A DNA stretch of 64,000 nt from Naegleria gruberi (taxonomy: Eukaryota), in NCBI GenBank assembly GCA_000004985.1, contig GG738854.1; one strand, written 5' to 3'. The position numbers and the translations under genes were made by a program. Positions 21-59,947 of this stretch are shown here, piece by piece (positions within the stretch are counted from its first letter, which is position 1; every line of letters begins with the position of its first letter). Under the pieces are notes generated by a model. The model was given only the letters and a program-made list of their open reading frames with translations. It had not been told where the DNA came from and searched no databases.

Positions 21-3000
21 TTGACCAATAGTACTTTCTGTACTTTTAAAGAGTCACCATGCACTTCCATTCAACAAGCCATCGATCAGGTACTGGAAAT
101 GTACTATGATAAGAAAATAATTGAACAGCCAAGTGCTCGTTTCATTCTAATGCCCAATCTCTCTGCAGGCCATCATCCATCGAAAAGACTCATCTATGGA
201 AAGGATCAGTGTGATAACTCTTTCAATAGATGGTTTTACTACTTATTACTTGAATCACATTCGAATGAAGAAATAATTGAATTTCAATGTGAGGGAGAAA
301 GTCTTGTCAACCCTCAAATGTTTTTTGGATTGTACTTGATGAGACTCAAGTTGAGGAATACCTTATTGCGTATTGATGAACGCATTGTTGTCTTGTACAT
401 GTATGGAGTACATGCCACAAATTCTAGAATTGGATTTACTAGAAAGGGAGATGATGTCATTATGAAATATTCACTCCTTTACAGTTATTTTGGAGATGGG
501 GATATTCAATTGGAGGCAAGTGATATTAATATTAATGGATCTATTGTTGAGCGAGTTACAATGTACTCGACCAGTAAGACCAGTATGAACATTACCCACT
601 CAAGGATCACACAATTCAAGTTTACCTCATCATCTGGTGGGGAATTTTCTAATTTTGATATTTTAATTTCCTTTTCGAAACTTAATAATACTGAATGGTA
701 TATTAGTAACTTTGGAAATGTGCAGTTGGATCAAATTGATATTTTCAATGATTTTCAAATCTCAATATTTTACACTAGCTCTATTTCTATTAGTCAACTA
801 TACACGAGAGGGAACAATGTACGATTTTATGCAATCTTTGTGGGGATTAGTGGTGGTATCCAAATTGAAAAATCATACTTTAATTCACTCACAAATTTTG
901 GAAATTCGAAAAACATATTTGACATTACTGCTACACCTATTTTAAATATCGAAAACTCTGTATTTTCCAACAGTAATCCATTATTTGGCGTGGCTGTTTG
1001 CGGTGAATTGAGGGGATACAATTTACAATTTATTGGAAACAAGGGTCCTTGCATATATTCTGATCTTGATAAAGGATTGGGTGTGAGCAGTGTTTCTATT
1101 TCACAATCAAAATTCATCAACAATTCATGTAGTGATTGTTCTGGAGGAGCTCTATTCTTGAGAGGTGTTGGATTTTTGGGTTTAGATTCCTCTTTTGTGG
1201 GAAATACTGCTACCAATGGAGGAGCATGTTACATTTCGGCCAGCTCAATAGGATTGAGCCAAGCCCAATTCATGGACAATAGAGCAACATTGAAAGGAGG
1301 AGCTTTTTATGTTGAATTTGTGGATAGTGGTTCCATGAATGGGGCATTTAACTTTGAATGTATCAATAACGTAGCTCAATACTCTGGAGGTTGTTACTAT
1401 TCTACTAACAGGACCTTAACATTTGAATTAATTGATCCAATTTTGGAAAGAAACCGTGCAAACTCCTATGGTGAAACATTTGGATACCCATTTTTTGATT
1501 TGAACTATCTCATTACCGTAACATATGGAAACGGAACAATATATACAGGTGTTTCTAACTCTTTTCCAGAACTTTCATTATATGCAGGTCAAATTATTTC
1601 AACCATTGAAATTACATTGTGGAACAATCGAACAGATCGAGTATCCTATTTGGAGTTGCCAATGGAGATTGAAGTGAACACGTCTCTTGTATTGCTCAAT
1701 TATGAACAAAAGAAAAACCCCTTCAATTCGACAATAACAATTGAGAATATCTATTTCACTCAAATGGCTGTGCTTCCTTCTCTCCAAAATTTCTTCACTT
1801 TACAGATGAAGATTGAGAATTTCAATCTCACAGCAATGGTCACTGTGCTGGATTGCCCTCACGGCTTATCTCTAGTCCAAAGTGTTGCACAAATTGGTAC
1901 TCTTACCTGTATTTTGAATCCAACAATACCTTATCAAATCATTATACCAGTCGTTTCAGTTGTTACACTGATTATTGTTGGAATTATTGCATTTTGTACT
2001 TTTTTCATTATTAGAATGACTCTTGTCATCGTAAGAAAACTTAAATTACTCAATAGAAAACTGGAAGCTGAAAAGAAAATGGAATCCAAACTATTACAAA
2101 AGCGAGTTGCCCTCATGGATGATGACAATGATGAGATGAATGAAAAATCATCACTTTTAATCAACTCAAATGGTGAAAGCAGCAATAACTACCATTCCCT
2201 GATGGATCATTCTTCCTCATGGATCATATCTATTGATGACATTGAGATTTTGAAAAAGATTGCTGAAGGAGCAAGTGGTTGCATTTATCTTTGTGATTGG
2301 AAGGGCACTAAGGTAGCTCTTAAAACACTTAAAAATCAAATGGAAGTCGATAATGATATCCTTTTTGAACGGGAAGCAGCATTGCTCTCAACACTTAGAC
2401 ATCCCAATATTGTTCAATTTTTTGGTATCATATTTTGTTCTAGGAAATACATAGCTGTAGAATATTTGGAAAAGGGAAGTTTGGACAAGTTGATTTATGA
2501 TTCAAAAACTGGACAGGCCAAGTTGAATTTTACAAAAAAAATTGAGATTCTTTATGGGGTTGCAAAAGGAATGGCCTATCTACACACCATGAAACCAAAA
2601 CCAATCATACACAGAGACTTGAAACCTGGAAATATTTTAATAGACATCAACTTGACACCAAAGATTTGTGATTTTGGATTGAGTAGAGTTTGGAACAATT
2701 CATTTTCCAACCAATCAGCCCCAACCATGAATGTTGGAACTTTTTTCTACCTTGCCAATGTATGTTATTTCTATTTTATCACATTCTGATTATTAACATT
2801 TTCGTTTAGGAAATGATATCTGGAGATCAATATAACCACAAGGTAGATGTTTACAGTTTTGGAATAATAATGTGGGAATTGTTTTTTGAGGAGAGCCCTT
2901 ATATTAATCAACATTCTCCCAAGCTCTTTAAATATGGAGAGGCGAGAGATGATGATATTTCACACTTGGGTTTCAATGCATTAGGAAAGGTATTGAGCGG

Positions 3001-3241
3001 GGAGAGACCTACCATTCCATTCCATGATAAATCTTCAGTCAAATTATGGATTGCTGATTTCCTATTGGAACACCAATCAAATAATGACAAAATATTGGAT
3101 GCCACTACTAATGCAGTTATTCAGTATGTTGACTTGATGAAACAATGTTGGAGTGGAACTCCATCTGAAAGACCAGAATTTACAGAAATCACATTGAGTT
3201 TGTCAAATTTGTTGGATCAAGTTAGTGAATTCAAGATATAA
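21..3241 (+). CDS. Receptor-like protein kinase, 5' partial. It has an extracellular Gly-rich parallel-beta-helix-like repeat domain, one TM helix and a Ser/Thr-type (TKL-like) kinase. Exons are 21..2759 and 2810..3241.
   Basis: The ORF is open from the window edge with no signal peptide. The first in-frame ATG is at 99, so the true start is probably upstream. Repeats of the form GGA(C/L)Y.. are followed by the TM helix IIIPVVSVVTLIIVGIIAFCTFFII. Kinase motifs are GASGCIYLC..VALK, HRDLKPGNILID and DFGLSRV. The 50-nt intron 2760..2809 (gtatgt..tttag) joins in frame to ..YLAN|EMISGDQ..DVYSFGIIMWE (subdomains VIII-IX). The stop is at 3239-3241. Confidence 0.8.
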
Positions 3242-3388
3242 CTTGACAGTTTTCCAACTTGTCCAGTAGATCCAACAGCGATGCCTGACATTTCGCATTA
3301 CTAAAATTAATTTCCACTTCCACTCAACATTACGATGAAAAATAAATACATTTCATGATGATAATCCACCAATAAAAATTTAGGGCCA

Positions 3389-6300
3389 TTGGATACAGAT
3401 TCAAACCACGCCACATTTGTAGCTCAAATTAATTTACAAGATTTGAGATTTTATCATTCACCAAAAAGTTATTTACCAGAAAAGGGATGGTTATTCTTTT
3501 TTGTTGGATCTGATAATGGCATTCATTCACAAGATATGAAGCAACCATTTTCTTTCTATTGGAATGGTTCAAAGAATGATTTGAAAAGAGTGGAAAAACC
3601 TGAAGATGTCGCGATTGAGTTGGTAAATCGTTTAATTTTTGATGAATCTTGTGAGCAATTGGAATTTCAATATCCAGACAAGTATGAGTATTATTCTACT
3701 TTCTTTAAATTGTTTGGTCATTCAATTTATCATACCTATCCTGAAACTACAGTGTTATTGGCCTCAACAGGTTATGCATTCTTTTTAGAGAATGAAATTG
3801 AGATAAGAAAGAGAAAGGGAGTTCAATCTCTGATTAGTAGATATGAAAGAAGAGGAAAATCTGAATATGTTTCACCTTCTAATGTTTCAATTCTATCTCA
3901 AGATAGCAATGATAATGATGGACAACATAACATGTTTGAGACATTTTATCCTAGTGCTTTGATATTCAGGAGATATAGCTCTATACACCAGAGTAGAATC
4001 ACTGATTTGGATAATAATTCATATCTTCCATTATTTCTCAAGAATTATAAACCAAAAATCAGTGAAGAACCAACAAAATTTTGGAGAAGAACCGATTTTT
4101 TGACTCCAGGTCAAGAAATTAAAGCTCCTAAAAAGATGCTTACTGCAAATTTTGTAAAGCAAGATCCTGTAACTGATTGGGAGGATCAATCACTTCCTGA
4201 AACAGTTTCAAACAAGGATAAGTGTTTCAAAATTAGCTGTATACTCTCTCCTGATGAGTGTGCAGATTTAAGAATTTGCTCCTTACCTTTCTATACCAAT
4301 ATCCAATCAGAATATCCAACAGAATATAGAAATTGTGAAAGAGCTCTATTGAAGAGTCAAAAATTAGCTGACCTATTGTGGGATAGAATTAGCCCATACT
4401 TTAATTCAACAGATTTCAAGAATGTACAACCGTATGGATTTGACAATAGTGGTGTATGGAAACCAATGGAAATTAATCCATGTTTCCGTTTCTCAGTCTA
4501 CACAACAGATGAAACAACAGGAACCTATTTCAAACCTCACAAAGATGCTCAATTTGTTAAGAATGATAATGAAAAGAGTATTTTCACAGTTTTACTCTAT
4601 TTGAACTATGTGAGATTTGGTGGTTCCACAACTTTCCTCCAAAAAGTTAGAGATGAATCAGAAGATGGATCTGAAATGACTTTTAGAATTATTCATGATC
4701 AATCACCTGAATCAGGAGCTGTTGTTATATTCAATCATGATCTTTATCATCAGGGTTCTCCTGTTGAACGTTATGAAAAGATTATTTTGAGAACTGAGAT
4801 TATATTCAAGAGAGTTGACTCTTTGAGTGTTCCTCGTTCTGATTATAGAAATACACAAGATTATCTCAAAGTTAAACAGTTAATTGAGGAATCAAATGAA
4901 TTAGAAAGACAAGGAGATACCAAACAATCACTCCTCAAATATCTTCATGCGTTGGATGTTCAGACAAACATTTCTCCATCTCTCCAATGGTCTGATTTGA
5001 GTAATAAGAGTCATTTGGAGAGATTGCCTGAGGAAATTATTGGTGTTATTTGTTCCTTCTTAACAAGTAGTCAAATTGCAACACTAATGTTGCCACTTTC
5101 TTCTTTATTGAACTCTTACTCTAGAAATCCAACAATTTGGAAGGAAAAATATGAACAAGAATGGAAAGATGAAAACCAAGAAGAACAAGAAGAGGAAGAA
5201 GTTGAAGAAACAGATATTTTATGTTTTTATGATGAAAAACAAGTCAAATGTCAAAGAAATGAAACTATTTTCATTGAGGCATTAAAAGAATATAAGGATT
5301 GGTATGCATTATATGTTTCACGTAAGAGTATGGACAAGTTCTGGTCTCCAGTATTACTCGATACAGGTCGTAGCACCTATCGTTATTCTTTACAAAATAG
5401 TGAAACTGCAGAGAAGGATTTAATGATGTGCAGAAAACCAAATCATCCACAGTATGTATTATTCAATGGATTCAGAATTATAATATTTTAATATAGTTTC
5501 AATTTACCAGGGTTTGGATTGGAAGATATTCTTTCTGGAGCTAGAGCTGCAGATAATTTATACTTGACTCAGCCTCTTCCACTCGTTGACAGTTGTGGAA
5601 GAATTGAAGATTATAAGAATTTCAAGACTTTGTTATTCCAATTGTATGCAAATGATTTGAAAGTGAAATTTCAAATTCACCCTTTCGTGTTAGCAATTCC
5701 ATTTTCTTGGACAGAAAATGAAACTTTGCAGGTAAAGAAATTAATTTACGAACTTGGAATTCCATTATCATGCTTGGTTGACTCTTCCAAATTAATTGCA
5801 CTTAATTATTCTAAACCTAATTGCATTGTTTTGAACATTTCATCAAGTGGTGTTGGTTGTGTTCCAATAAGAAATTATGAACCTTTGAATGAATTGAAAT
5901 TATTCGAACCATTCAATATTGCCGAACAAGTTTCATCTAATATGGAAGTTGGGGATAATATCTATGGAGTGTTGAGATTGGTTCTTACCATTCCACCAAC
6001 TCCACCAGAACTTTACGAAACTCTAAAAGAAATATGGGAAGGATTCATCTATGAATCTGAAATTTCATTGGAAGTGGGTGGATATGAGAGAAGTTTTGAT
6101 GTAACTAGATTATTTGATGCTGGAAACCAATTTTATATTACTGCCTTTGAGGCATTAAGGACAAGAATTGAATCTTTGAATAAGGGTGACGCTAGTAATG
6201 CTGAGCATGATGTTTTGATTTGTGGTGGATTTTCTTCAGTAAAAGGAATGAAAGAAAGGTTAACTCGTGAGATTAGAGAAATTTATCCAAATATCAATTT

Positions 6301-6394
6301 AGAATTCAAATCTGATGATATGGAAGTTATTGGAGGTGCTAAAATATTTTGCAGTCTGCCAAGCTTTAAGGAACAACTCCAGGTTAGTCAATAG
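3389..6394 (+). CDS. Multidomain protein: an N-terminal region of unknown function, a P4H-type 2OG-Fe(II) oxygenase domain, an F-box, an acidic linker and an actin-related (Arp-like) ATPase domain. Exons are >=3389..5451 and 5497..6394. The 5' end is uncertain.
   Basis: The continuous 700-codon ORF 3389..5491 contains the oxygenase motifs FKPHKDAQF (HxD), TVLLYLNYVRFGGSTTF, VVIFNHDLYHQGSPV (distal His) and ILRTEIIF (Arg). The F-box is LERLPEEIIGVICSFLTSSQIATLMLPLSSLLNSY..TIW. The actin phosphate-1-like motif is VLLDTGRSTYRYS. The downstream ORF 5519..6394 is in the same frame and is actin-like: HPFVLAIP, ..CIVLNISSSGVGCVPI, DVLICGGFSSVKGMKERLTREIREI, VIGGAKIFCSL. A 45-nt GTATGT..TATAG segment at 5452..5496 removes the intervening TAA in frame. 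A sequence ending tttag lies immediately upstream of 3389. No ATG-containing upstream exon was found. The first in-frame ATG is at 3536. Confidence 0.6.
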
Positions 6395-6405
6395 ATGTTC
6401 TTTAT

Positions 6406-7554
6406 TTAAGCCAGGCCAATATCTAATGCCATCATGGCCACAAATCCAATAAAAAAGAATAAAATTGAAATCTTTGCCAAGATTTGACTTTTTGAAGTTT
6501 TTGACATGGTGAGTGGAACTAACTCTTCAATCACTACTACAAGCATGACTCCAGAGGCACAAGAAAGGGCATACGGTAAAATTGTAGATGAGATAAATAC
6601 CAATAAACAACCAAATAGACCTCCTAATGGTTCAGTCAATCCAGAGGCTGCTCCTAAAGCAAATGCTTTCCATATTCTTCTGGAGAGAGATCCATTAGTT
6701 TCAGATCCAAATATTGGAAAGGTTACAGAGATACCTTCTGTAATATTCTGGATAGCAATTGAAAATGAAAGAGCAATTGCACTAAACAGTGTAGCTCCAG
6801 AACTTGCAGAATTGGCTGCCGCAGCAAAGGCAACTCCCACGATAATTCCTTCTGGAATATTATGTAGAGTCATGGCTGTGAAAATAACCCAGCTCTTGTG
6901 TCTATTTTCTATTTTATGATGTTCCAAATCAATTTCATCTTGTTGATTAACATTATCAGAACTTTCAATTTGATTCATTTCCACGTTCTCTTCCACCGAA
7001 TCATTTACTTGAATTCCTCTACTTTTTTTCAATTTCTTCTCAATAAATTGTTGAATTTTGTGAACTAATCCATCAAAAATCATAATAGCAACAACTCCAA
7101 CTAGAAAACTCAATCCAACAACTAATAGCATTTCAAATTTTGTATCATCTTCTCCAAAATGATTAATGGCAGGTAATAATAAACTAAAGAATGAAGCACC
7201 TAACATGACACCAGCTCCAAATGAAATTGACAATGGAATCAAGACATCATTTGTGAATGAAACATTTTGATATTCATTACTAGTTTTCCAAAATTTACCA
7301 AAAACCAATCTTCCAAGAAGGTTAGAAAATTTAGAATTTACAGAATTTCTACTTTCGAATTTGGAACAATACGAACAAAAGATCAAACTAGCTCCGAGGG
7401 CAGTGGTGGCCGAATTGATGAGTGTGAAAATAAGAGTTTGAAACACTGGATGAATACCCAATAGAAAATCCGTAACATGTCCATTTTGAGTTGTGTTAGA
7501 ATATGATGGGAGGGAATCATTAGCAAGTAAATAGAGAGGGAACAAGTCGGACAT
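6406..7554 (-). CDS. ZIP family (ZupT/ZIP11-like) zinc/iron permease, single exon.
   Basis: The 382-aa ORF starts with ATG at 7554 in an A-rich context. It has multiple TM helices, the ZIP signature HNIPEGIIVGVAFAA and a His-rich cytoplasmic loop (DLEHHKIENRHK). Confidence 0.85.
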   Translation of the reverse strand: MSDLFPLYLLANDSLPSYSNTTQNGHVTDFLLGIHPVFQTLIFTLINSATTALGASLIFCSYCSKFESRNSVNSKFSNLLGRLVFGKFWKTSNEYQNVSFTNDVLIPLSISFGAGVMLGASFFSLLLPAINHFGEDDTKFEMLLVVGLSFLVGVVAIMIFDGLVHKIQQFIEKKLKKSRGIQVNDSVEENVEMNQIESSDNVNQQDEIDLEHHKIENRHKSWVIFTAMTLHNIPEGIIVGVAFAAAANSASSGATLFSAIALSFSIAIQNITEGISVTFPIFGSETNGSLSRRIWKAFALGAASGLTEPLGGLFGCLLVFISSTILPYALSCASGVMLVVVIEELVPLTMSKTSKSQILAKISILFFFIGFVAMMALDIGLA

Positions 7555-7846: not shown

Positions 7847-9202
7847 TCAATCCAAATGATTATTATATTTATCAACTTGTGAACTCATATCATATAATAA
7901 TTGAGCTTGTTTATCCAAATCATCAGAAAATGAATTGGCAATTCCACCAACTTGTTGAATTTGACCAAGTAAAATATCTATTTTGATATCTTGAATAGCT
8001 TTAGCTTGTTCTATTTGTTCCAAACCTTCACTAATGTCAACTGAGGGAATTTCATTCTTTGCTTTTTGAAAACTTTCAACAGAATCAAATTTGACATTCT
8101 TTAGTTCAATATCATCATGGAGTTCTTCACCCATCATTAAGGTGTGTTTTGCTTGCACTAATTTACTGGAATCCATGAAATGTTGAATATCATTCTCTCT
8201 TTGCTTTCTCATTTGAAGCAGCATTTGAATTTCTTTCCATAATAAAGTTTTTTGAAAAGCTTGTTTATGAATTGTTATTAATTAATTCATTTCATCTTCC
8301 ATCTTTGAGATTGACTTTCTAATATCATTATTTAAACGAGCATTGCTAATTTGTCGTTCCTTTGTTTCTAATAAAGATTCGACTTTATCAATGGCAAGTT
8401 TAACATTAACTATTCAAGGTGTAAATGAAACTATAAATGTTATTATTTACCTTTTTGTTGTTCAAACTTGTCCAACTTTTTTAGTTTCTGTTGAAATTCT
8501 TTTTGTGTGTCTAATTGAGCACTTTCGACAACTTGTCCACAATCTATTCTAGGGAAGAAGGATAAATTACAGCACGCAGGGGGAGAGGGGGTCTTGGCCA
8601 AATTATTAAAATAAAAATTAAAAAATTAAAAAATAATAAATAAAATAGAATGATTTCATTTGCAAAAACCGCTACAAGATGACCGTTAAATATTCAACAA
8701 AAAAAAAACAACAATTACTCATCATGATTTCATCACCACCCTGCTAAATAACAACCTTCATCACGCTACCTTGATACCACCGGAGGAGAAGTTCTTTTGC
8801 TTCCTTCCACATCATAGCCAACATTCAACATCTGTCATTTACTTGAAGTTGTTGGTACATTGAAGTGAGGGTTCAGAACGAACACCAATCACACTTGGCC
8901 ATTGTTCAGAACCCAGAAAGTGCTTGTTGCTCGAAGAACAAGTGGTAATTGATACTTTGAACGCCCTGTTTTTCTCTTGGTCTAATAAAGACTTGTATTG
9001 TTAATAAACTTCTATCTATAACAAATCATGAAAAAAAATCATACAACACCCTCAGTTGGTAGGAGGGGGTTCCAGACGGCCAAAAAGTGTAATTTATCCT
9101 TCTTCCCCTAATCTGATAAAGTCGACGTAGTAGATCAGCCAAACCTGGTGAAGTTTGCATTAAATCTATTGTTTCTATAATGTTAGAATCTATGTCTGCC
9201 AT
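7847..9202 (-). CDS. Qc-SNARE (syntaxin-8/Tlg1-like) protein interrupted by a 546-bp TIR element. With the element removed the coding segments are 9202..9098, 8548..8451 and 8409..7847, with intron 8410..8450. This copy also has an in-frame TAA at 8282-8284.
   Basis: The C-terminal SNARE heptad motif is IEQAKAIQDIKIDILLGQIQQVGGIANSFSDDLDKQAQLLYDMSSQV. The upstream coiled-coil (Habc-like) reading NVKLAIDKVESLLETKERQISNARLNNDIRKS continues across a minus-strand gtaaat..gaatag intron. The ATG at 9202 (MADIDSNIIETIDL..LRRLYQIR) joins exactly in frame to IDCGQVVESAQLDTQKEFQQKL once 8552-9100 is deleted. No C-terminal TM segment was found. The paralogous copy at 58302-58789 has GAA instead of TAA at the equivalent position. 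Confidence 0.5.
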
Positions 9203-9706
9203 GTTATTTCTTTTTTTTAATTGTTTTGGTTCACTTGAGTTTGCTTTCGAATACAAATACTGATCTGGCCGAGTAAAAAAAAAATTGCTCCAAAGCAAAA
9301 ACCTTAAAAATAGATGGTTGTCATCAACTCGAATCTTAACAACAAATTCTTATTTGCCAGCCAACTTTCTTACCTACTAAGAGTATTAAAACCAATGTTT
9401 TTGAGTTTGGGTATAAAATATTGGAAGAACCTATGGACAACTGCCAATTCTATTTCATGTTATTGTGTTAGAGGAGAGTTTTACAAATATGGTTAGATTG
9501 AAATATCCTCAAGTAACATAATTTGTGACTGTAACCTTGGATAATAAGATTCTTTTGATAGTGGTAACCAGATCTAAAAATCTCAGAGGAAAAACAACTG
9601 AAATAAAAAATCCAACAACATGACATGGCCAACAACACAACAACAAACATGGAAACAACAAGGCTACATTGCATGTTGTATCATTCTTGTGTTATTGTGT
9701 TCAACA
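8060..9706. repeat. Copy A of a 1647-bp near-identical (about 99.7%) duplicated block. Copy B is at 58301-59947.
   Basis: The two copies sit at a constant offset of 50241 with no indels. Substitutions are seen at 8185 (g/t), 8220 (a/g), 8255 (a/t) and 8284 (a/c), plus the edge bases 8060 and 9706 next to the gaps. Confidence 0.9.
8552..9097. mobile_element. MITE-like non-autonomous DNA element, 546 bp, inserted in the SNARE coding exon. It has perfect 20-bp terminal inverted repeats (GGGAAGAAGGATAAATTACA) and a 3-bp CTA target-site duplication at 8549-8551 and 9098-9100.
   Basis: The arms at 8552-8571 and 9078-9097 are exact reverse complements. A direct CTA lies immediately outside each arm. 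The interior has a roughly 40%-GC non-coding core at about 8700-8958 that ends in a T-run, flanked by A/T-rich spacers. Excising the element plus one CTA restores a continuous ORF across the junction. Confidence 0.55.
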
Positions 9707-58300: not shown

Positions 58301-59947
58301 GGCTTTTTGAAAACTTTCAACAGAATCAAATTTGACATTCTTTAGTTCAATATCATCATGGAGTTCTTCACCCATCATTAAGGTGTGTTTTGCTTGCACT
58401 AATTTACTGGAATCCATGAAATGTTTAATATCATTCTCTCTTTGCTTTCTCATTTGAAGCGGCATTTGAATTTCTTTCCATAATAAAGTTTTTTGTAAAG
58501 CTTGTTTATGAATTGTTATTAATTCATTCATTTCATCTTCCATCTTTGAGATTGACTTTCTAATATCATTATTTAAACGAGCATTGCTAATTTGTCGTTC
58601 CTTTGTTTCTAATAAAGATTCGACTTTATCAATGGCAAGTTTAACATTAACTATTCAAGGTGTAAATGAAACTATAAATGTTATTATTTACCTTTTTGTT
58701 GTTCAAACTTGTCCAACTTTTTTAGTTTCTGTTGAAATTCTTTTTGTGTGTCTAATTGAGCACTTTCGACAACTTGTCCACAATCTATTCTAGGGAAGAA
58801 GGATAAATTACAGCACGCAGGGGGAGAGGGGGTCTTGGCCAAATTATTAAAATAAAAATTAAAAAATTAAAAAATAATAAATAAAATAGAATGATTTCAT
58901 TTGCAAAAACCGCTACAAGATGACCGTTAAATATTCAACAAAAAAAAAACAACAATTACTCATCATGATTTCATCACCACCCTGCTAAATAACAACCTTC
59001 ATCACGCTACCTTGATACCACCGGAGGAGAAGTTCTTTTGCTTCCTTCCACATCATAGCCAACATTCAACATCTGTCATTTACTTGAAGTTGTTGGTACA
59101 TTGAAGTGAGGGTTCAGAACGAACACCAATCACACTTGGCCATTGTTCAGAACCCAGAAAGTGCTTGTTGCTCGAAGAACAAGTGGTAATTGATACTTTG
59201 AACGCCCTGTTTTTCTCTTGGTCTAATAAAGACTTGTATTGTTAATAAACTTCTATCTATAACAAATCATGAAAAAAAATCATACAACACCCTCAGTTGG
59301 TAGGAGGGGGTTCCAGACGGCCAAAAAGTGTAATTTATCCTTCTTCCCCTAATCTGATAAAGTCGACGTAGTAGATCAGCCAAACCTGGTGAAGTTTGCA
59401 TTAAATCTATTGTTTCTATAATGTTAGAATCTATGTCTGCCATGTTATTTCTTTTTTTTAATTGTTTTGGTTCACTTGAGTTTGCTTTCGAATACAAATA
59501 CTGATCTGGCCGAGTAAAAAAAAAATTGCTCCAAAGCAAAAACCTTAAAAATAGATGGTTGTCATCAACTCGAATCTTAACAACAAATTCTTATTTGCCA
59601 GCCAACTTTCTTACCTACTAAGAGTATTAAAACCAATGTTTTTGAGTTTGGGTATAAAATATTGGAAGAACCTATGGACAACTGCCAATTCTATTTCATG
59701 TTATTGTGTTAGAGGAGAGTTTTACAAATATGGTTAGATTGAAATATCCTCAAGTAACATAATTTGTGACTGTAACCTTGGATAATAAGATTCTTTTGAT
59801 AGTGGTAACCAGATCTAAAAATCTCAGAGGAAAAACAACTGAAATAAAAAATCCAACAACATGACATGGCCAACAACACAACAACAAACATGGAAACAAC
59901 AAGGCTACATTGCATGTTGTATCATTCTTGTGTTATTGTGTTCAACC
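58301..59947. repeat. Copy B of the 1647-bp duplicated block (equals 8060-9706), bounded by gaps on both sides.
   Basis: Base-for-base collinear with copy A at an offset of 50241, apart from 4 internal substitutions and 2 edge bases. It includes the 3' part of the SNARE gene, the TIR element (arms 58793-58812 and 59319-59338) and the first 87 nt of the NHL-kinase CDS (ATG 59861). Confidence 0.9.
58302..58789 (-). CDS. Copy B of the Qc-SNARE gene, partial. Exons are 58692..58789 and 58302..58650 (3' end lost in the gap). It lacks the premature stop of copy A.
   Basis: The ORF 58241..58543 reads MEDEMNELITIHKQALQKTLLWKEIQMPLQMRKQREND.. straight through the position where copy A has TAA. Intron 58651..58691 is as in copy A. 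Confidence 0.45.

What the first reader, a model, noticed from the sequence alone, without database searches (positions are those of the whole stretch)
3389..6394. One reading frame fuses a prolyl-4-hydroxylase-type 2OG-Fe(II) oxygenase, an F-box and an actin-related ATPase domain
Seen in sequence: a single 700-codon ORF carries three things in order. First, the HxD...H...R iron/2-oxoglutarate triad in the characteristic P4H/PF13640 context (FKPHKDAQF, TVLLYLNYVRFGGSTTF, FNHDLYHQGSPV, ILRTEIIF). Second, a well-formed F-box (LERLPEEIIGVICSFLTSSQIATLMLPLSSLLNSY..W). Third, the phosphate-1 motif of the actin fold (VLLDTGRSTYRYS). The actin fold then continues in the same frame after a 45-nt intron-like segment, through HPFVLAIP, DVLICGGFSSVKGMKERLTREIREI and IGGAKIFCSL. 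From established knowledge, F-box proteins are the substrate adaptors of SCF ligases. In dictyostelids the SCF subunit Skp1 is itself regulated by a cytoplasmic P4H-type prolyl hydroxylase followed by glycosylation. An adaptor that physically carries such a hydroxylase domain, plus an Arp module, is not an architecture I recognise. It could be a self-contained oxygen-sensing module or a hydroxylating ubiquitin-ligase adaptor, possibly targeted to actin structures. That last part is inference.
Basis: partly seen in the sequence, partly recalled or inferred. Interest (0 to 1): 0.8.

Follow-up and report, generated by a model that had tools for sequence, protein, structure and literature searches.

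The report
Hydroxylase–F-box–actin-fold fusion protein gene

Summary
Window 3384-5451 plus 5497-6394 (+), joined across a 45-nt GTATGT..TAG intron, encodes about 990 aa. Domain order is DUF1963-like, P4H-type 2OG/Fe(II) oxygenase (H392, D394, H462, K472), helical hairpin, F-box-like motif, complete actin fold.

The organism is a Naegleria-type heterolobosean, not a dictyostelid. The N. gruberi predicted protein XP_002674260.1 is 67% identical over the full length, including the DUF1963 part.

The oxygenase/F-box/actin order recurs in Naegleria, Willaertia, Physarum, dictyostelids and chytrids, and less securely in a centrohelid. Three members come from transcript assemblies; the Physarum one shows all three domains. 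The architecture is therefore not an assembly chimera and not unique.

I found no paper describing the family. Both halves have characterised precedents: JcdI and KDM2 (oxygenase plus F-box) and plant ARP8/SUSA2 (F-box plus actin domain).

The actin fold lacks actin's catalytic residues, so it is probably not an ATPase.

The 5' end in this window is unresolved. Homology to a 99%-identical metagenome contig and to the ortholog stops exactly at 3383|3384, and no start-codon exon was found.

Most likely function, inferred: a Skp1-binding F-box protein whose actin fold is the receptor domain and whose oxygenase adds O2/2OG-dependent hydroxylation. Interest is moderate.

The parts
3384..5451 (+). 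Long exon. It encodes the DUF1963-like domain, linker, oxygenase, helical hairpin, F-box and the first strands of the actin fold. The 5' boundary is the point where homology to the ortholog and to contig L002 begins.
   Evidence: The frame is open from 3365. The region is 99.1% identical to L002 from 3384 onward and 67% identical in protein to N. gruberi P0161 from aa 8.
3242..3383 (+). Unresolved 5' region. It runs from the stop codon of the upstream kinase gene to an acceptor-like AAAAATTTAG|G. It has no GT dinucleotide from 3268 to 3383 and no counterpart of the conserved N-terminal ~42 codons.
   Evidence: Sequence reading. L002's first 35 nt encode GGCPDLPDSIQW but do not match 3349-3383 or any other place in the window. 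tblastn with the N. gruberi N-terminus finds only 3386-3466.
3386..3712 (+). DUF1963 (YwqG-like) domain, lacking its first ~15 profile positions. The first in-frame ATG is at 3536.
   Evidence: PF09234 at 29.1 bits, aa 8-116, profile positions 16-115 of 216. The ortholog P0161 scores 52.2 bits from profile position 1.
4070..4834 (+). P4H/PHD-type 2OG-Fe(II) oxygenase domain. Codons: H392 at 4538-4540, D394 at 4544-4546, H462 at 4748-4750, K472 at 4778-4780, R476 at 4790-4792. The Pfam core is 4490-4786.
   Evidence: PF13640, E = 2.3e-7. The listed residues are invariant in the 7-sequence alignment. H, D, H and K are invariant, and R nearly so, across 62 family members. The AlphaFold model of window 4070-5179 matches prolyl 4-hydroxylases at E = 3e-8 to 1e-5.
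4835..5008 (+). Conserved helical hairpin between the oxygenase and the F-box (Y..VK.L..ES.ELE.QG......YL.A...Q).
   Evidence: Conserved in alignments A1 and A5. Predicted as helices 263-298 of the model.
5009..5173 (+). F-box-like motif (LERLPEEIIGVICSFLTSSQIATLMLPLSSLLNSYSRNPTIWKEKYEQEW).
   Evidence: PF12937 at 17 bits, below threshold. The family profile finds FBXL5, Cdc4, FBXW proteins and KDM2B. 46 of 62 relatives match Pfam F-box-like at E <= 0.01.
5327..5451 (+). Start of the actin-fold domain. It includes the phosphate-1 strand VLLDTGRSTYRYS (D666 at 5360-5362, G668 at 5366-5368) and KPNHP.
   Evidence: Alignment to beta-actin residues 1-40. The family profile matches PDB actins from actin residue 1.
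5452..5496 (+). 45-nt intron, GTATGT...ATATAG, phase 2.
   Evidence: The junction is validated by homologues. Divergence from L002 is higher here than in the exons.
5497..6394 (+). Second exon. It encodes the rest of the actin fold (HPFVLAIP, degenerate phosphate-2 IVLNISSSGVG, adenosine motif LICGGFS, IGGAKIF) and the TAG stop at 6392-6394.
   Evidence: PF00022 at 37.1 bits on this exon alone. PDB actins are matched at E about 1e-13. The model of paralogue P0002 superposes on actin at a target-normalised TM-score of about 0.8 over about 375 columns.

Best explanation
What it is (shown). The locus is the Naegleria-lineage ortholog of N. gruberi XP_002674260.1. It belongs to a conserved eukaryotic family of multidomain proteins. 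The domain order is: variable N-terminal module (here DUF1963), P4H-type 2OG/Fe(II) dioxygenase, helical hairpin, F-box, actin-fold domain.

How it probably works (inferred). The F-box docks the protein on Skp1, and so on Cul1-Rbx1. The C-terminal actin fold sits where F-box proteins carry their substrate-receptor domain. It has lost actin's hydrolytic residues, so it probably serves as a binding scaffold rather than an ATPase or a filament subunit. The N-terminal dioxygenase keeps its full iron and 2OG-binding set. It would hydroxylate a protein held in the complex, whether a substrate, a partner or the protein itself. That would make the output depend on O2, 2OG and Fe.

In this particular window the start-codon exon is not found. 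Whether this copy is intact is open.
For: Shown:
- One exon carries DUF1963, the oxygenase, the F-box and the first actin strands. A validated 45-nt intron joins the rest of the actin fold.
- The N. gruberi ortholog is 67% identical over the full length, including the inter-domain linkers.
- An independent metagenome contig is 99.1% identical.
- Pfam hits for three domains are above threshold.
- The family F-box profile finds FBXL5, Cdc4, FBXW proteins and KDM2B.
- The actin profile matches actins at about 1e-13, and the paralogue model has a target-normalised TM-score of about 0.8 to actin.
- The oxygenase model matches P4Hs from B. anthracis, P. putida and Chlamydomonas, plus P4H-TM, PHD2 and DdPhyA.
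- H, D, H and K are invariant across 62 family members.
- The same domain order occurs in Physarum (a transcript assembly), Tieghemostelium and a chytrid, with taxa. A centrohelid transcript member shows it too, but its Actin hit is below threshold at 20.3 bits against 27.
- The positions of actin Q137, H161, S14 and G15 are never conserved, and D154 in only 4 members, among the 10-24 members (of 34) that aligned at each position.

Precedent:
- JcdI, a dioxygenase with an F-box, binds Skp1 through that F-box and has a Km for O2 of about 22% (PMC9485057).
- SUSA2/ARP8, an F-box protein with an actin domain, binds ASK1. Its authors propose the actin domain as the substrate receptor. Four of its predicted nucleotide-binding residues (G258, K313, G399, G400) were dispensable for the tested phenotype (PMC7562919).
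Against: - No binding or activity was tested.
- The window's own F-box is below Pfam threshold (17 against 24.3 bits). The family replaces the usual helix-3 motif (VCKRW in Skp2, from my own knowledge) with L..N..IN.Y. This region has low confidence in both models (pLDDT about 45-60).
- The structural matches to P4Hs are moderate: target-normalised TM-score about 0.5, model pLDDT 69.6.
- Prolyl specificity is not established.
- For JcdI, the F-box was not needed for the O2 phenotype. A canonical substrate-receptor role therefore does not follow from having an F-box.
- In this window the N-terminal exon is missing.
Confidence: 0.5

Rival explanations
1. Skp1-tethered hydroxylase rather than an E3 substrate receptor. 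In this reading the F-box only recruits Skp1 as a stabilising or regulatory partner, and as a route to the protein's own turnover, as proposed for Dictyostelium JcdI. The biologically relevant output is hydroxylation of targets bound by the actin fold or the N-terminal module, not their ubiquitination.
For: JcdI needs Skp1 for solubility. Its O2 sensitisation needed dioxygenase activity but not the F-box, and its level is lowered when it is bound to modified Skp1 (PMC9485057). The catalytic residues of this family are invariant. N-terminal modules vary between members: DUF1963, ankyrin, NADAR, Macro, FYVE, Rhodanese.
Against: The domain order (F-box followed by a large C-terminal domain) is the usual receptor layout. 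SUSA2 appears to act within an SCF complex (PMC7562919). Nothing here separates the two readings.
Confidence: 0.25
2. The F-box is vestigial. The protein is a hydroxylase delivered to actin or Arp-containing structures by an Arp-like domain that co-assembles with actin or Arps.
For: The C-terminal domain is a complete four-subdomain actin fold, closest to conventional actin. The segment matching actin's D-loop region (KPNHPHF..GYG.DD..GD) is strongly conserved. The window's F-box is below threshold.
Against: F-box key positions (LPEE, I, L and two Trp) are invariant across the heterolobosean paralogues. 46 of 62 family members match Pfam F-box-like at E <= 0.01, which argues for selection on the F-box. 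Identity to actin is only about 16% and the nucleotide-site residues are lost, so co-polymerisation is not implied.
Confidence: 0.12
3. This particular copy is 5'-truncated, or the assembly is broken at 3383|3384. Either a rearrangement or deletion removed the start-codon exon, or the contig is mis-joined there. The locus as it stands may then not make the full protein.
For: Homology to the 99%-identical contig L002 and to the N. gruberi ortholog stops exactly at 3383|3384. There is no GT donor in 3268-3383. Only 142 nt separate this point from the upstream gene's stop. The first in-frame ATG is at 3536, inside the DUF1963 domain.
Against: The left side of the break looks like a genuine acceptor in this genome: TTTAG|G, compare the intron ends. 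The frame 3384-3535 is intact and only 2 nt different from L002, so any truncation is very recent. An exon beyond the window's start cannot be excluded. L002 is itself a metagenome contig end.
Confidence: 0.3
4. Gene-model artefact: the oxygenase, the F-box and the actin part belong to separate genes that merely abut.
For: No transcript data exist for this organism. Prokaryote-style gene callers split the locus at the intron.
Against: DUF1963, the oxygenase, the F-box and the first actin strands lie in one uninterrupted exon. The intron is in phase and the junction peptide is conserved. The same order is seen in a transcript-derived Physarum protein with all three domains, and in a centrohelid transcript with a below-threshold Actin hit. 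It is also seen in many independent annotations.
Confidence: 0.02

Closest known systems
Naegleria gruberi predicted protein NAEGRDRAFT_51124 (XP_002674260.1, UniProt D2VP08; 1036 aa)
   Same: It is the ortholog: 67% identity over window aa 8-994, with the same four domains in the same order.
   Different: It has about 42 extra N-terminal residues (MNEDV...SKFGGCPDLPDSINW) that complete the DUF1963 domain. These have no counterpart in the window. It is uncharacterised; the name is automatic.
Plant ARP8 / SUSA2 (At5g56180)
   Same: An F-box followed by a C-terminal actin-fold domain. It binds the Skp1 homologue ASK1. Its authors propose the actin domain as the substrate-recognition domain. Alanine substitutions at four of its predicted nucleotide-binding residues (G258, K313, G399, G400) did not affect the tested phenotype (PMC7562919).
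   Different: It has no oxygenase domain and no DUF1963. It was reported as plant-specific. Whether it is homologous to the F-box/actin half of this family was not tested, because no sequence was obtainable with the tools.
Dictyostelium JcdI/Fbxo13 (a JmjD6 relative) and human KDM2B
   Same: JcdI is a non-haem Fe/2OG dioxygenase with an F-box in one polypeptide. It binds Skp1 through that F-box and is O2-dependent (PMC9485057). A PDB chain of human KDM2B ('Lysine-specific demethylase 2B') is among the matches of the family F-box profile. From my own knowledge, KDM2A and KDM2B combine a JmjC oxygenase with an F-box.
   Different: In JcdI the oxygenase is JmjC-type, not P4H-type, and lies C-terminal to the F-box. 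From my own knowledge, KDM2 proteins use LRRs, not an actin fold, as the C-terminal domain.
Prolyl 4-hydroxylases (B. anthracis P4H, P. putida PPHD, Chlamydomonas P4H-1, P4H-TM, PHD2, Dictyostelium PhyA)
   Same: Same predicted fold, HxD...H triad and a basic residue 10 positions after the distal His. They are the best structural matches, and B. anthracis P4H is the only significant PDB sequence match.
   Different: Identity is only 12-20%. There is no orthology to PhyA or PHD2: they rank below the bacterial and algal P4Hs, and (from my own knowledge) use Arg rather than Lys. None of them carries an F-box or an actin fold. The substrate here is unknown.
Conventional actin and orphan actin-related proteins
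   Same: A full actin fold. The segments equivalent to actin residues 1-330 align, and the adenosine-motif GG is conserved.
   Different: Identity is about 16%. Q137, H161, S14, G15 and D154 are not conserved. It is not assignable to Arp1-11 on present evidence. It is embedded at the C-terminus of a ~1000-aa protein.

Membership tests
P4H/PHD-type 2OG-Fe(II) oxygenases (Pfam PF13640) | Profile match above the curated threshold | tested here: met
   32.1 bits against a cut-off of 27, E = 2.3e-7, aa 376-474.
P4H/PHD-type 2OG-Fe(II) oxygenases (Pfam PF13640) | HxD...H iron triad plus a basic 2OG-binding residue on the last core strand | tested here: met
   H392, D394, H462 and K472 (distal His + 10) and R476 are invariant in 7 sequences. 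H, D, H and K are invariant in 62 sequences. Assigning K472 as the 2OG ligand is by analogy with collagen-type P4Hs (established knowledge).
P4H/PHD-type 2OG-Fe(II) oxygenases (Pfam PF13640) | Double-stranded beta-helix fold closest to prolyl hydroxylases | tested here: met
   The AlphaFold model of window 4070-5179 (pLDDT 69.6) gives P4Hs as its top Foldseek PDB hits, E = 3e-8 to 1e-5 and target-normalised TM-score about 0.5. Model quality is moderate.
P4H/PHD-type 2OG-Fe(II) oxygenases (Pfam PF13640) | 2OG-dependent hydroxylation of peptidyl proline | not testable with these tools
   Needs an enzyme assay. Substrate specificity cannot be read from the fold.
F-box proteins (SCF substrate receptors) | F-box profile match above the curated threshold in the window's protein | tested here: not met
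   PF12937 scores 17 bits against 24.3, E = 0.005, although it is aligned over 45 of 47 profile positions. There was no hit on the whole protein at E <= 1.
F-box proteins (SCF substrate receptors) | Homology of the segment to bona fide F-boxes at family level | tested here: met
   The profile of 8 family segments finds FBXL5 at 3.1e-5, Cdc4 at 9.4e-4, and FBXW21/12 and KDM2B, all at their F-box positions. 46 of 62 relatives match Pfam F-box-like at E <= 0.01.
F-box proteins (SCF substrate receptors) | Direct binding to Skp1 and assembly with Cul1 | not testable with these tools
   Needs a pull-down or complex modelling. The F-box region of both models has low confidence.
Actin / actin-related proteins (Pfam PF00022) | Profile match above threshold and a full four-subdomain fold | tested here: met
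   32.5 bits on the whole protein and 37.1 bits on exon 2, against a cut-off of 27. The family profile matches actins at about 1e-13 over actin residues 1-326/357. The fold was tested on paralogue P0002, not on the window protein: target-normalised TM-score about 0.8.
Actin / actin-related proteins (Pfam PF00022) | Intact nucleotide-binding and hydrolysis residues (D11, S14, G15, K18, Q137, D154, G156, D157, H161, G301, G302) | tested here: not met
   The window protein has D, R, S, R, S, N, S, S, G, G, G at these positions. Q137, H161, S14 and G15 are never conserved among the family members that aligned. Nucleotide binding as such is not excluded.
Actin / actin-related proteins (Pfam PF00022) | Assignment to a named Arp class (Arp1-11) | not tested
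   No phylogeny was run. The best sequence and structure matches are conventional actins, with Arp9 and Arp4 complexes further down.
DUF1963 / YwqG-like (Pfam PF09234) | Profile match above threshold | tested here: met
   23.7 bits on the whole protein and 29.1 bits on the N-terminal part alone, against a cut-off of 23. The ortholog scores 52.2 bits.
DUF1963 / YwqG-like (Pfam PF09234) | Complete domain including the N-terminal GG.PdlP...WP segment | tested here: not met
   The window matches only profile positions 16-115 of 216. The GGCPDLPDSI(N/Q)W segment present in P0161 and L002 is absent from the window.
Skp1 prolyl 4-hydroxylase PhyA | Orthology to PhyA and activity on Skp1 | tested here: inconclusive
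   DdPhyA (6t8m) is only rank 31 of the structural matches, at E = 7e-6. No reciprocal or phylogenetic test was run, and activity is not testable. Not filed as PhyA.

The most novel reading that the evidence does not exclude
The family is an ancient, single-polypeptide 'hydroxylate-and-ubiquitinate' module. A P4H-type O2/2OG sensor is hard-wired to an SCF receptor whose recognition domain is an actin fold. It would act alongside the PhyA-Skp1 pathway in protists and chytrids. Plant ARP8/SUSA2 would then be a derived remnant that lost the oxygenase.
Probability: 0.15. Interest if true: 0.8.

Novelty: new variant of a known kind. Interest (0 to 1): 0.55.

Why it matters
Oxygen sensing in protists is known to run through a prolyl hydroxylase acting on Skp1. 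One other F-box dioxygenase, JcdI, has been characterised, and its authors note that further O2 sensors must exist (PMC9485057).

This family would be a second F-box dioxygenase lineage, of P4H type. It is conserved from Naegleria to Dictyostelium, Physarum and chytrids. It is physically linked to an actin-fold domain, a layout otherwise reported only for plant SUSA2/ARP8 and described there as plant-specific (PMC7562919).

A member exists in a Dictyostelium cf. discoideum assembly and in other dictyostelids. The hypothesis may therefore be testable by knockout and O2-dependent development assays in D. discoideum, if the laboratory strains carry it.

If the protein proves not to bind Skp1, or to be inactive, it is just another uncharacterised multidomain protist protein.

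Tried and rejected
- **Word-indexed protein search with the N-terminal 190 aa:** no hits. The ortholog surfaced only later, as a cluster member of a hit from the exhaustive profile search.
- **Word-indexed searches with the whole protein and with the alignment:** they returned only 6-7 heterolobosean paralogues and missed both the ortholog and the wider family.
- **Spliced conceptual protein:** it could not be handed to the structure or representative tools. I therefore modelled paralogue P0002 at full length and the window segment 4070-5179.
- **afdb50 fold library:** unavailable.
- **Exact look-ups of the window's ZIP protein and of P0161:** nothing on record. The species could not be named.
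- **Search for the 5' exon:**
  - L002's 35 nt, allowing up to 5 mismatches on both strands, found nothing.
  - tblastn with the N. gruberi N-terminus found nothing upstream of 3386.
  - Candidate GT donors at 3221 and 3266 do not give the right frame with the acceptor at 3383. A donor at 3225 (GTGAAT) would keep the frame but would join the kinase's C-terminus to this gene, which I judged implausible.
  - A model starting at ATG 3281, 'MPDISHY-W-PLD', resembles LPDSINWPQGID. It needs a non-canonical AA..AG 81-nt intron, so it is recorded only as a curiosity.
- **PDB sequence search with the DUF1963 part:** nothing.
- **Literature:** searches for the tri-domain architecture and for locus tags of family members found no description. 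The Dictyostelium actinome paper returned no match for 'hydroxylase', 'oxygenase' or 'additional domain', so I found no sign of the family there.
- **Plant ARP8:** I did not type its sequence from memory to test homology, because that would not be evidence.
the assumption that this is a dictyostelid locus was rejected.


Full report
**1. What is in the sequence**

The window is eukaryotic and about 33% G+C.

- On the + strand a frame is open from 3365. The tool lists ORF 3389..5491, followed by ORF 5519..6394.
- A 709-codon open frame at this composition is expected by chance about 2e-26 of the time.
- The 45 nt between the two ORFs (5452-5496) begin GTATGT and end ATATAG, in phase 2.
- The kinase gene just upstream has a comparable 50-nt GTATGT..TTTAG intron at 2760-2809.
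- Splicing gives a 994-codon reading frame counted from 3365.
- The junction peptide KPNHP-H-FNLPGFGLED aligns without a gap to PNHPHFYLPSYGFDD in every homologue.
- Against a 99%-identical contig, the 45 nt hold 2 substitutions plus a 2-nt indel. About 3 kb of exon holds 8 substitutions.

**2. Domains**

Pfam on the conceptual protein gives three hits:

| Family | Bits (cut-off) | E-value |
|---|---|---|
| Actin PF00022 | 32.5 (27) | 4.6e-8 |
| 2OG-FeII_Oxy_3 PF13640 | 32.1 (27) | 2.3e-7 |
| DUF1963 PF09234 | 23.7 (23) | 6.9e-5 |

It rises to 29.1 bits when the N-terminal part is scanned alone.

*F-box.* The window's own F-box segment is below threshold: PF12937, 17 bits against 24.3. A profile of the eight family F-box segments finds F-box proteins as its best PDB matches, all at their F-box positions: FBXL5 3.1e-5, Cdc4 9.4e-4, FBXW21/12 and KDM2B.

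*Actin fold.* The family profile matches PDB actins at about 1e-13, over actin residues 1-326 or 1-357. An AlphaFold model of paralogue P0002 (pLDDT 64.9) superposes on actins. The target-normalised TM-score is about 0.8 over about 375 columns at 16% identity.

*Oxygenase.* A model of window 4070-5179 (pLDDT 69.6) has prolyl 4-hydroxylases as its best PDB matches. These include B. anthracis 5v7y at 3e-8, then P. putida PPHD, Chlamydomonas P4H-1, PiuC, P4H-TM, PHD2 and Dictyostelium PhyA. By sequence, the B. anthracis P4H (E about 1e-3) is the only significant PDB match.

*Catalytic residues.* H392, D394, H462, K472 and R476 are invariant among the heterolobosean sequences. The H, D, H and K positions are invariant, and R nearly so, across 62 wider family members.

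*Actin nucleotide site.* This site is degenerate. At the positions of actin D11, S14, G15, K18, Q137, D154, G156, D157, H161, G301 and G302 the window protein has D, R, S, R, S, N, S, S, G, G, G. Q137, H161, S14 and G15 are never conserved among the family members that aligned.

**3. Whose gene is it**

The first word-indexed searches returned only 33-40% identical paralogues from Naegleria lovaniensis, N. gruberi, Willaertia magna and one metagenome contig.

The exhaustive profile search changed the picture. 300 representatives score E <= 1e-30 and 2,710 score E <= 1e-10.

One hit's cluster contains N. gruberi NAEGRDRAFT_51124 (XP_002674260.1, 1036 aa).

- It is 67% identical to the window protein from aa 8 to the end, including the DUF1963 part and all linkers.
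- Pfam finds DUF1963 (52 bits), 2OG-FeII_Oxy_3 and Actin in it.

The window therefore comes from a Naegleria-type heterolobosean, not a dictyostelid. Its gene is the ortholog of an already deposited but uncharacterised protein.

A metagenome contig, L002 (ENA ERZ929261), is 99.1% identical to window 3384-7431. That is independent assembly support for the locus.

**4. How widespread is the architecture**

Of 62 long family members, 62 have PF13640, 46 have F-box-like and 32 have Actin at E <= 0.01. Some carry other N-terminal add-ons: ankyrin, NADAR, Macro, FYVE or Rhodanese.

Named members:

- Heterolobosea: N. fowleri, N. lovaniensis, N. gruberi, Willaertia.
- Amoebozoa: Physarum polycephalum, Dictyostelium cf. 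discoideum, D. purpureum, Cavenderia fasciculata, Tieghemostelium lacteum, Pyxidicula.
- Centrohelid: Pterocystis.
- Chytrids: Nowakowskiella, Rhizophlyctis.

Members checked individually for the three domains:

| Member | Source | Result |
|---|---|---|
| Physarum | transcript assembly | all three domains |
| Tieghemostelium | genome annotation | all three domains |
| Nowakowskiella sp. | genome annotation | all three domains |
| Pterocystis | transcript assembly | oxygenase and F-box; Actin below threshold (20.3 bits against 27) |
| Pyxidicula | transcript assembly | NADAR, oxygenase and F-box; no Actin hit |

The Physarum transcript is evidence for a single mRNA carrying all three domains in that species.

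**5. The 5' end is not resolved**

L002 begins with 35 nt encoding GGCPDLPDSIQW. These run straight into ...PLDIDSNHATFVAQ, just like N. gruberi's GGCPDLPDSINWPQGIDSNPAKF.

Those 35 nt do not match window 3349-3383 or any other place in the window. tblastn with the N. gruberi N-terminus finds nothing upstream of 3386. Homology therefore breaks exactly at 3383|3384.

On the window's left side lies AAAAATTTAG|G, which looks like an intron end in this genome. But there is no GT between 3268 and 3383, and the upstream kinase gene's stop is only 142 nt away. The first in-frame ATG, at 3536, lies inside the DUF1963 domain.

Possible explanations, none settled:

- an exon beyond the window's start;
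- a recent rearrangement or truncation;
- an assembly join.

**6. What it most likely does**

*Shown:* a conserved protein with an apparently competent P4H-type active site, an F-box-like motif and a non-catalytic actin fold, in that order.

*Inferred:* the F-box binds Skp1. The actin fold sits where F-box proteins carry their receptor domain, so it probably binds the partner or substrate. The oxygenase hydroxylates something held in the complex, which would make the output depend on O2, 2OG and Fe.

Two characterised systems make each half plausible.

- Dictyostelium JcdI is a dioxygenase with an F-box. It binds Skp1 through that F-box and has a Km for O2 of about 22% (PMC9485057).
- Arabidopsis SUSA2/ARP8 has an F-box plus an actin domain and binds ASK1. 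Its authors predict the actin domain to be the substrate-recognition domain. Alanine substitutions at four predicted nucleotide-binding residues did not affect the tested phenotype (PMC7562919).

The main rival is a JcdI-like reading. There, Skp1 binding regulates or stabilises the enzyme rather than delivering substrates to ubiquitination. A weaker rival is a vestigial F-box, with the actin fold targeting the enzyme to cytoskeletal assemblies.

**7. Comparison and novelty**

The oxygenase is P4H-like but is not an ortholog of PhyA or PHD2. Those rank below the bacterial and algal P4Hs. The conserved Lys at distal His + 10 is the collagen-type arrangement (established knowledge).

The actin fold cannot be placed in a named Arp class on present evidence.

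I found no paper describing a P4H/F-box/actin protein or any of six locus tags of family members. The Dictyostelium actinome paper returned no match for 'hydroxylase', 'oxygenase' or 'additional domain', so I found no sign of the family there. The SUSA2 paper calls the F-box/actin combination plant-only.

The sequences are public and automatically labelled, but the family appears undescribed. I rate it a new variant of known kinds: oxygenase-bearing F-box proteins and actin-fold F-box proteins. Interest is moderate, 0.55.

Noticed in passing
window 8061-9705 and 58302-59946: A 1,645-bp direct repeat, 99.76% identical (4 mismatches, no gaps), with the copies 50,241 bp apart. It could be a segmental duplication or a mobile or repeated gene segment.
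   Followed up: partly
window 21-3241 (+): The upstream gene encodes a transmembrane receptor-like protein kinase with a 50-nt GTATGT..TTTAG intron at 2760-2809. Its N-terminus probably lies beyond the window start. Its stop (3239-3241) is only 142 nt from the homology break at 3383|3384 and is in the same frame as the downstream ORF.
   Followed up: partly
window 6406-7554 (-): A ZIP-family metal transporter gene converges on the finding's gene, with only 11 nt between the two stop codons. The 3' UTRs must overlap.
   Followed up: no
window 3281-3302 with 3384 onward: ATG CCT GAC ATT TCG CAT TAC T, joined to GG CCA TTG GAT, would read MPDISHY-W-PLD. This resembles the ortholog's LPDSINWPQGID. 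It would need an 81-nt intron (3303-3383) with a non-canonical AA donor, so it may be a coincidence or a decayed exon.
   Followed up: partly
L002 relative to window 4794-4800 and 6389: The 99%-identical metagenome contig has a 7-nt deletion inside the oxygenase's last core strand. This is a frameshift and explains why its gene calls are split. It also has a 6-nt insertion just before the stop codon. These are either assembly errors or strain differences.
   Followed up: no
L001 (ENA ERZ929261, k127_281704) 1000-3706: The same metagenome sample holds a 40%-identical paralogue with the same oxygenase/F-box/actin order. It is split by introns into three called ORFs and has no DUF1963 N-terminus.
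   Followed up: partly
family members P0012, P0022, P0025, P0026, P0030, P0171: The oxygenase domains also give weak hits to Pfam Pox_C4_C10 (17 of 62 members). The Vaccinia C16 N-terminal domain appears among the structural matches (8ag3, E = 8e-6).
   Followed up: no
Naegleria genomes (P0001-P0006, P0008, P0009, P0012, P0014, P0161, P0163, P0171): The family is expanded in Naegleria: at least 6 paralogues in N. lovaniensis and 4-5 in N. gruberi. Among the sequences I examined, only the ortholog pair described here carries a DUF1963 N-terminus.
   Followed up: partly
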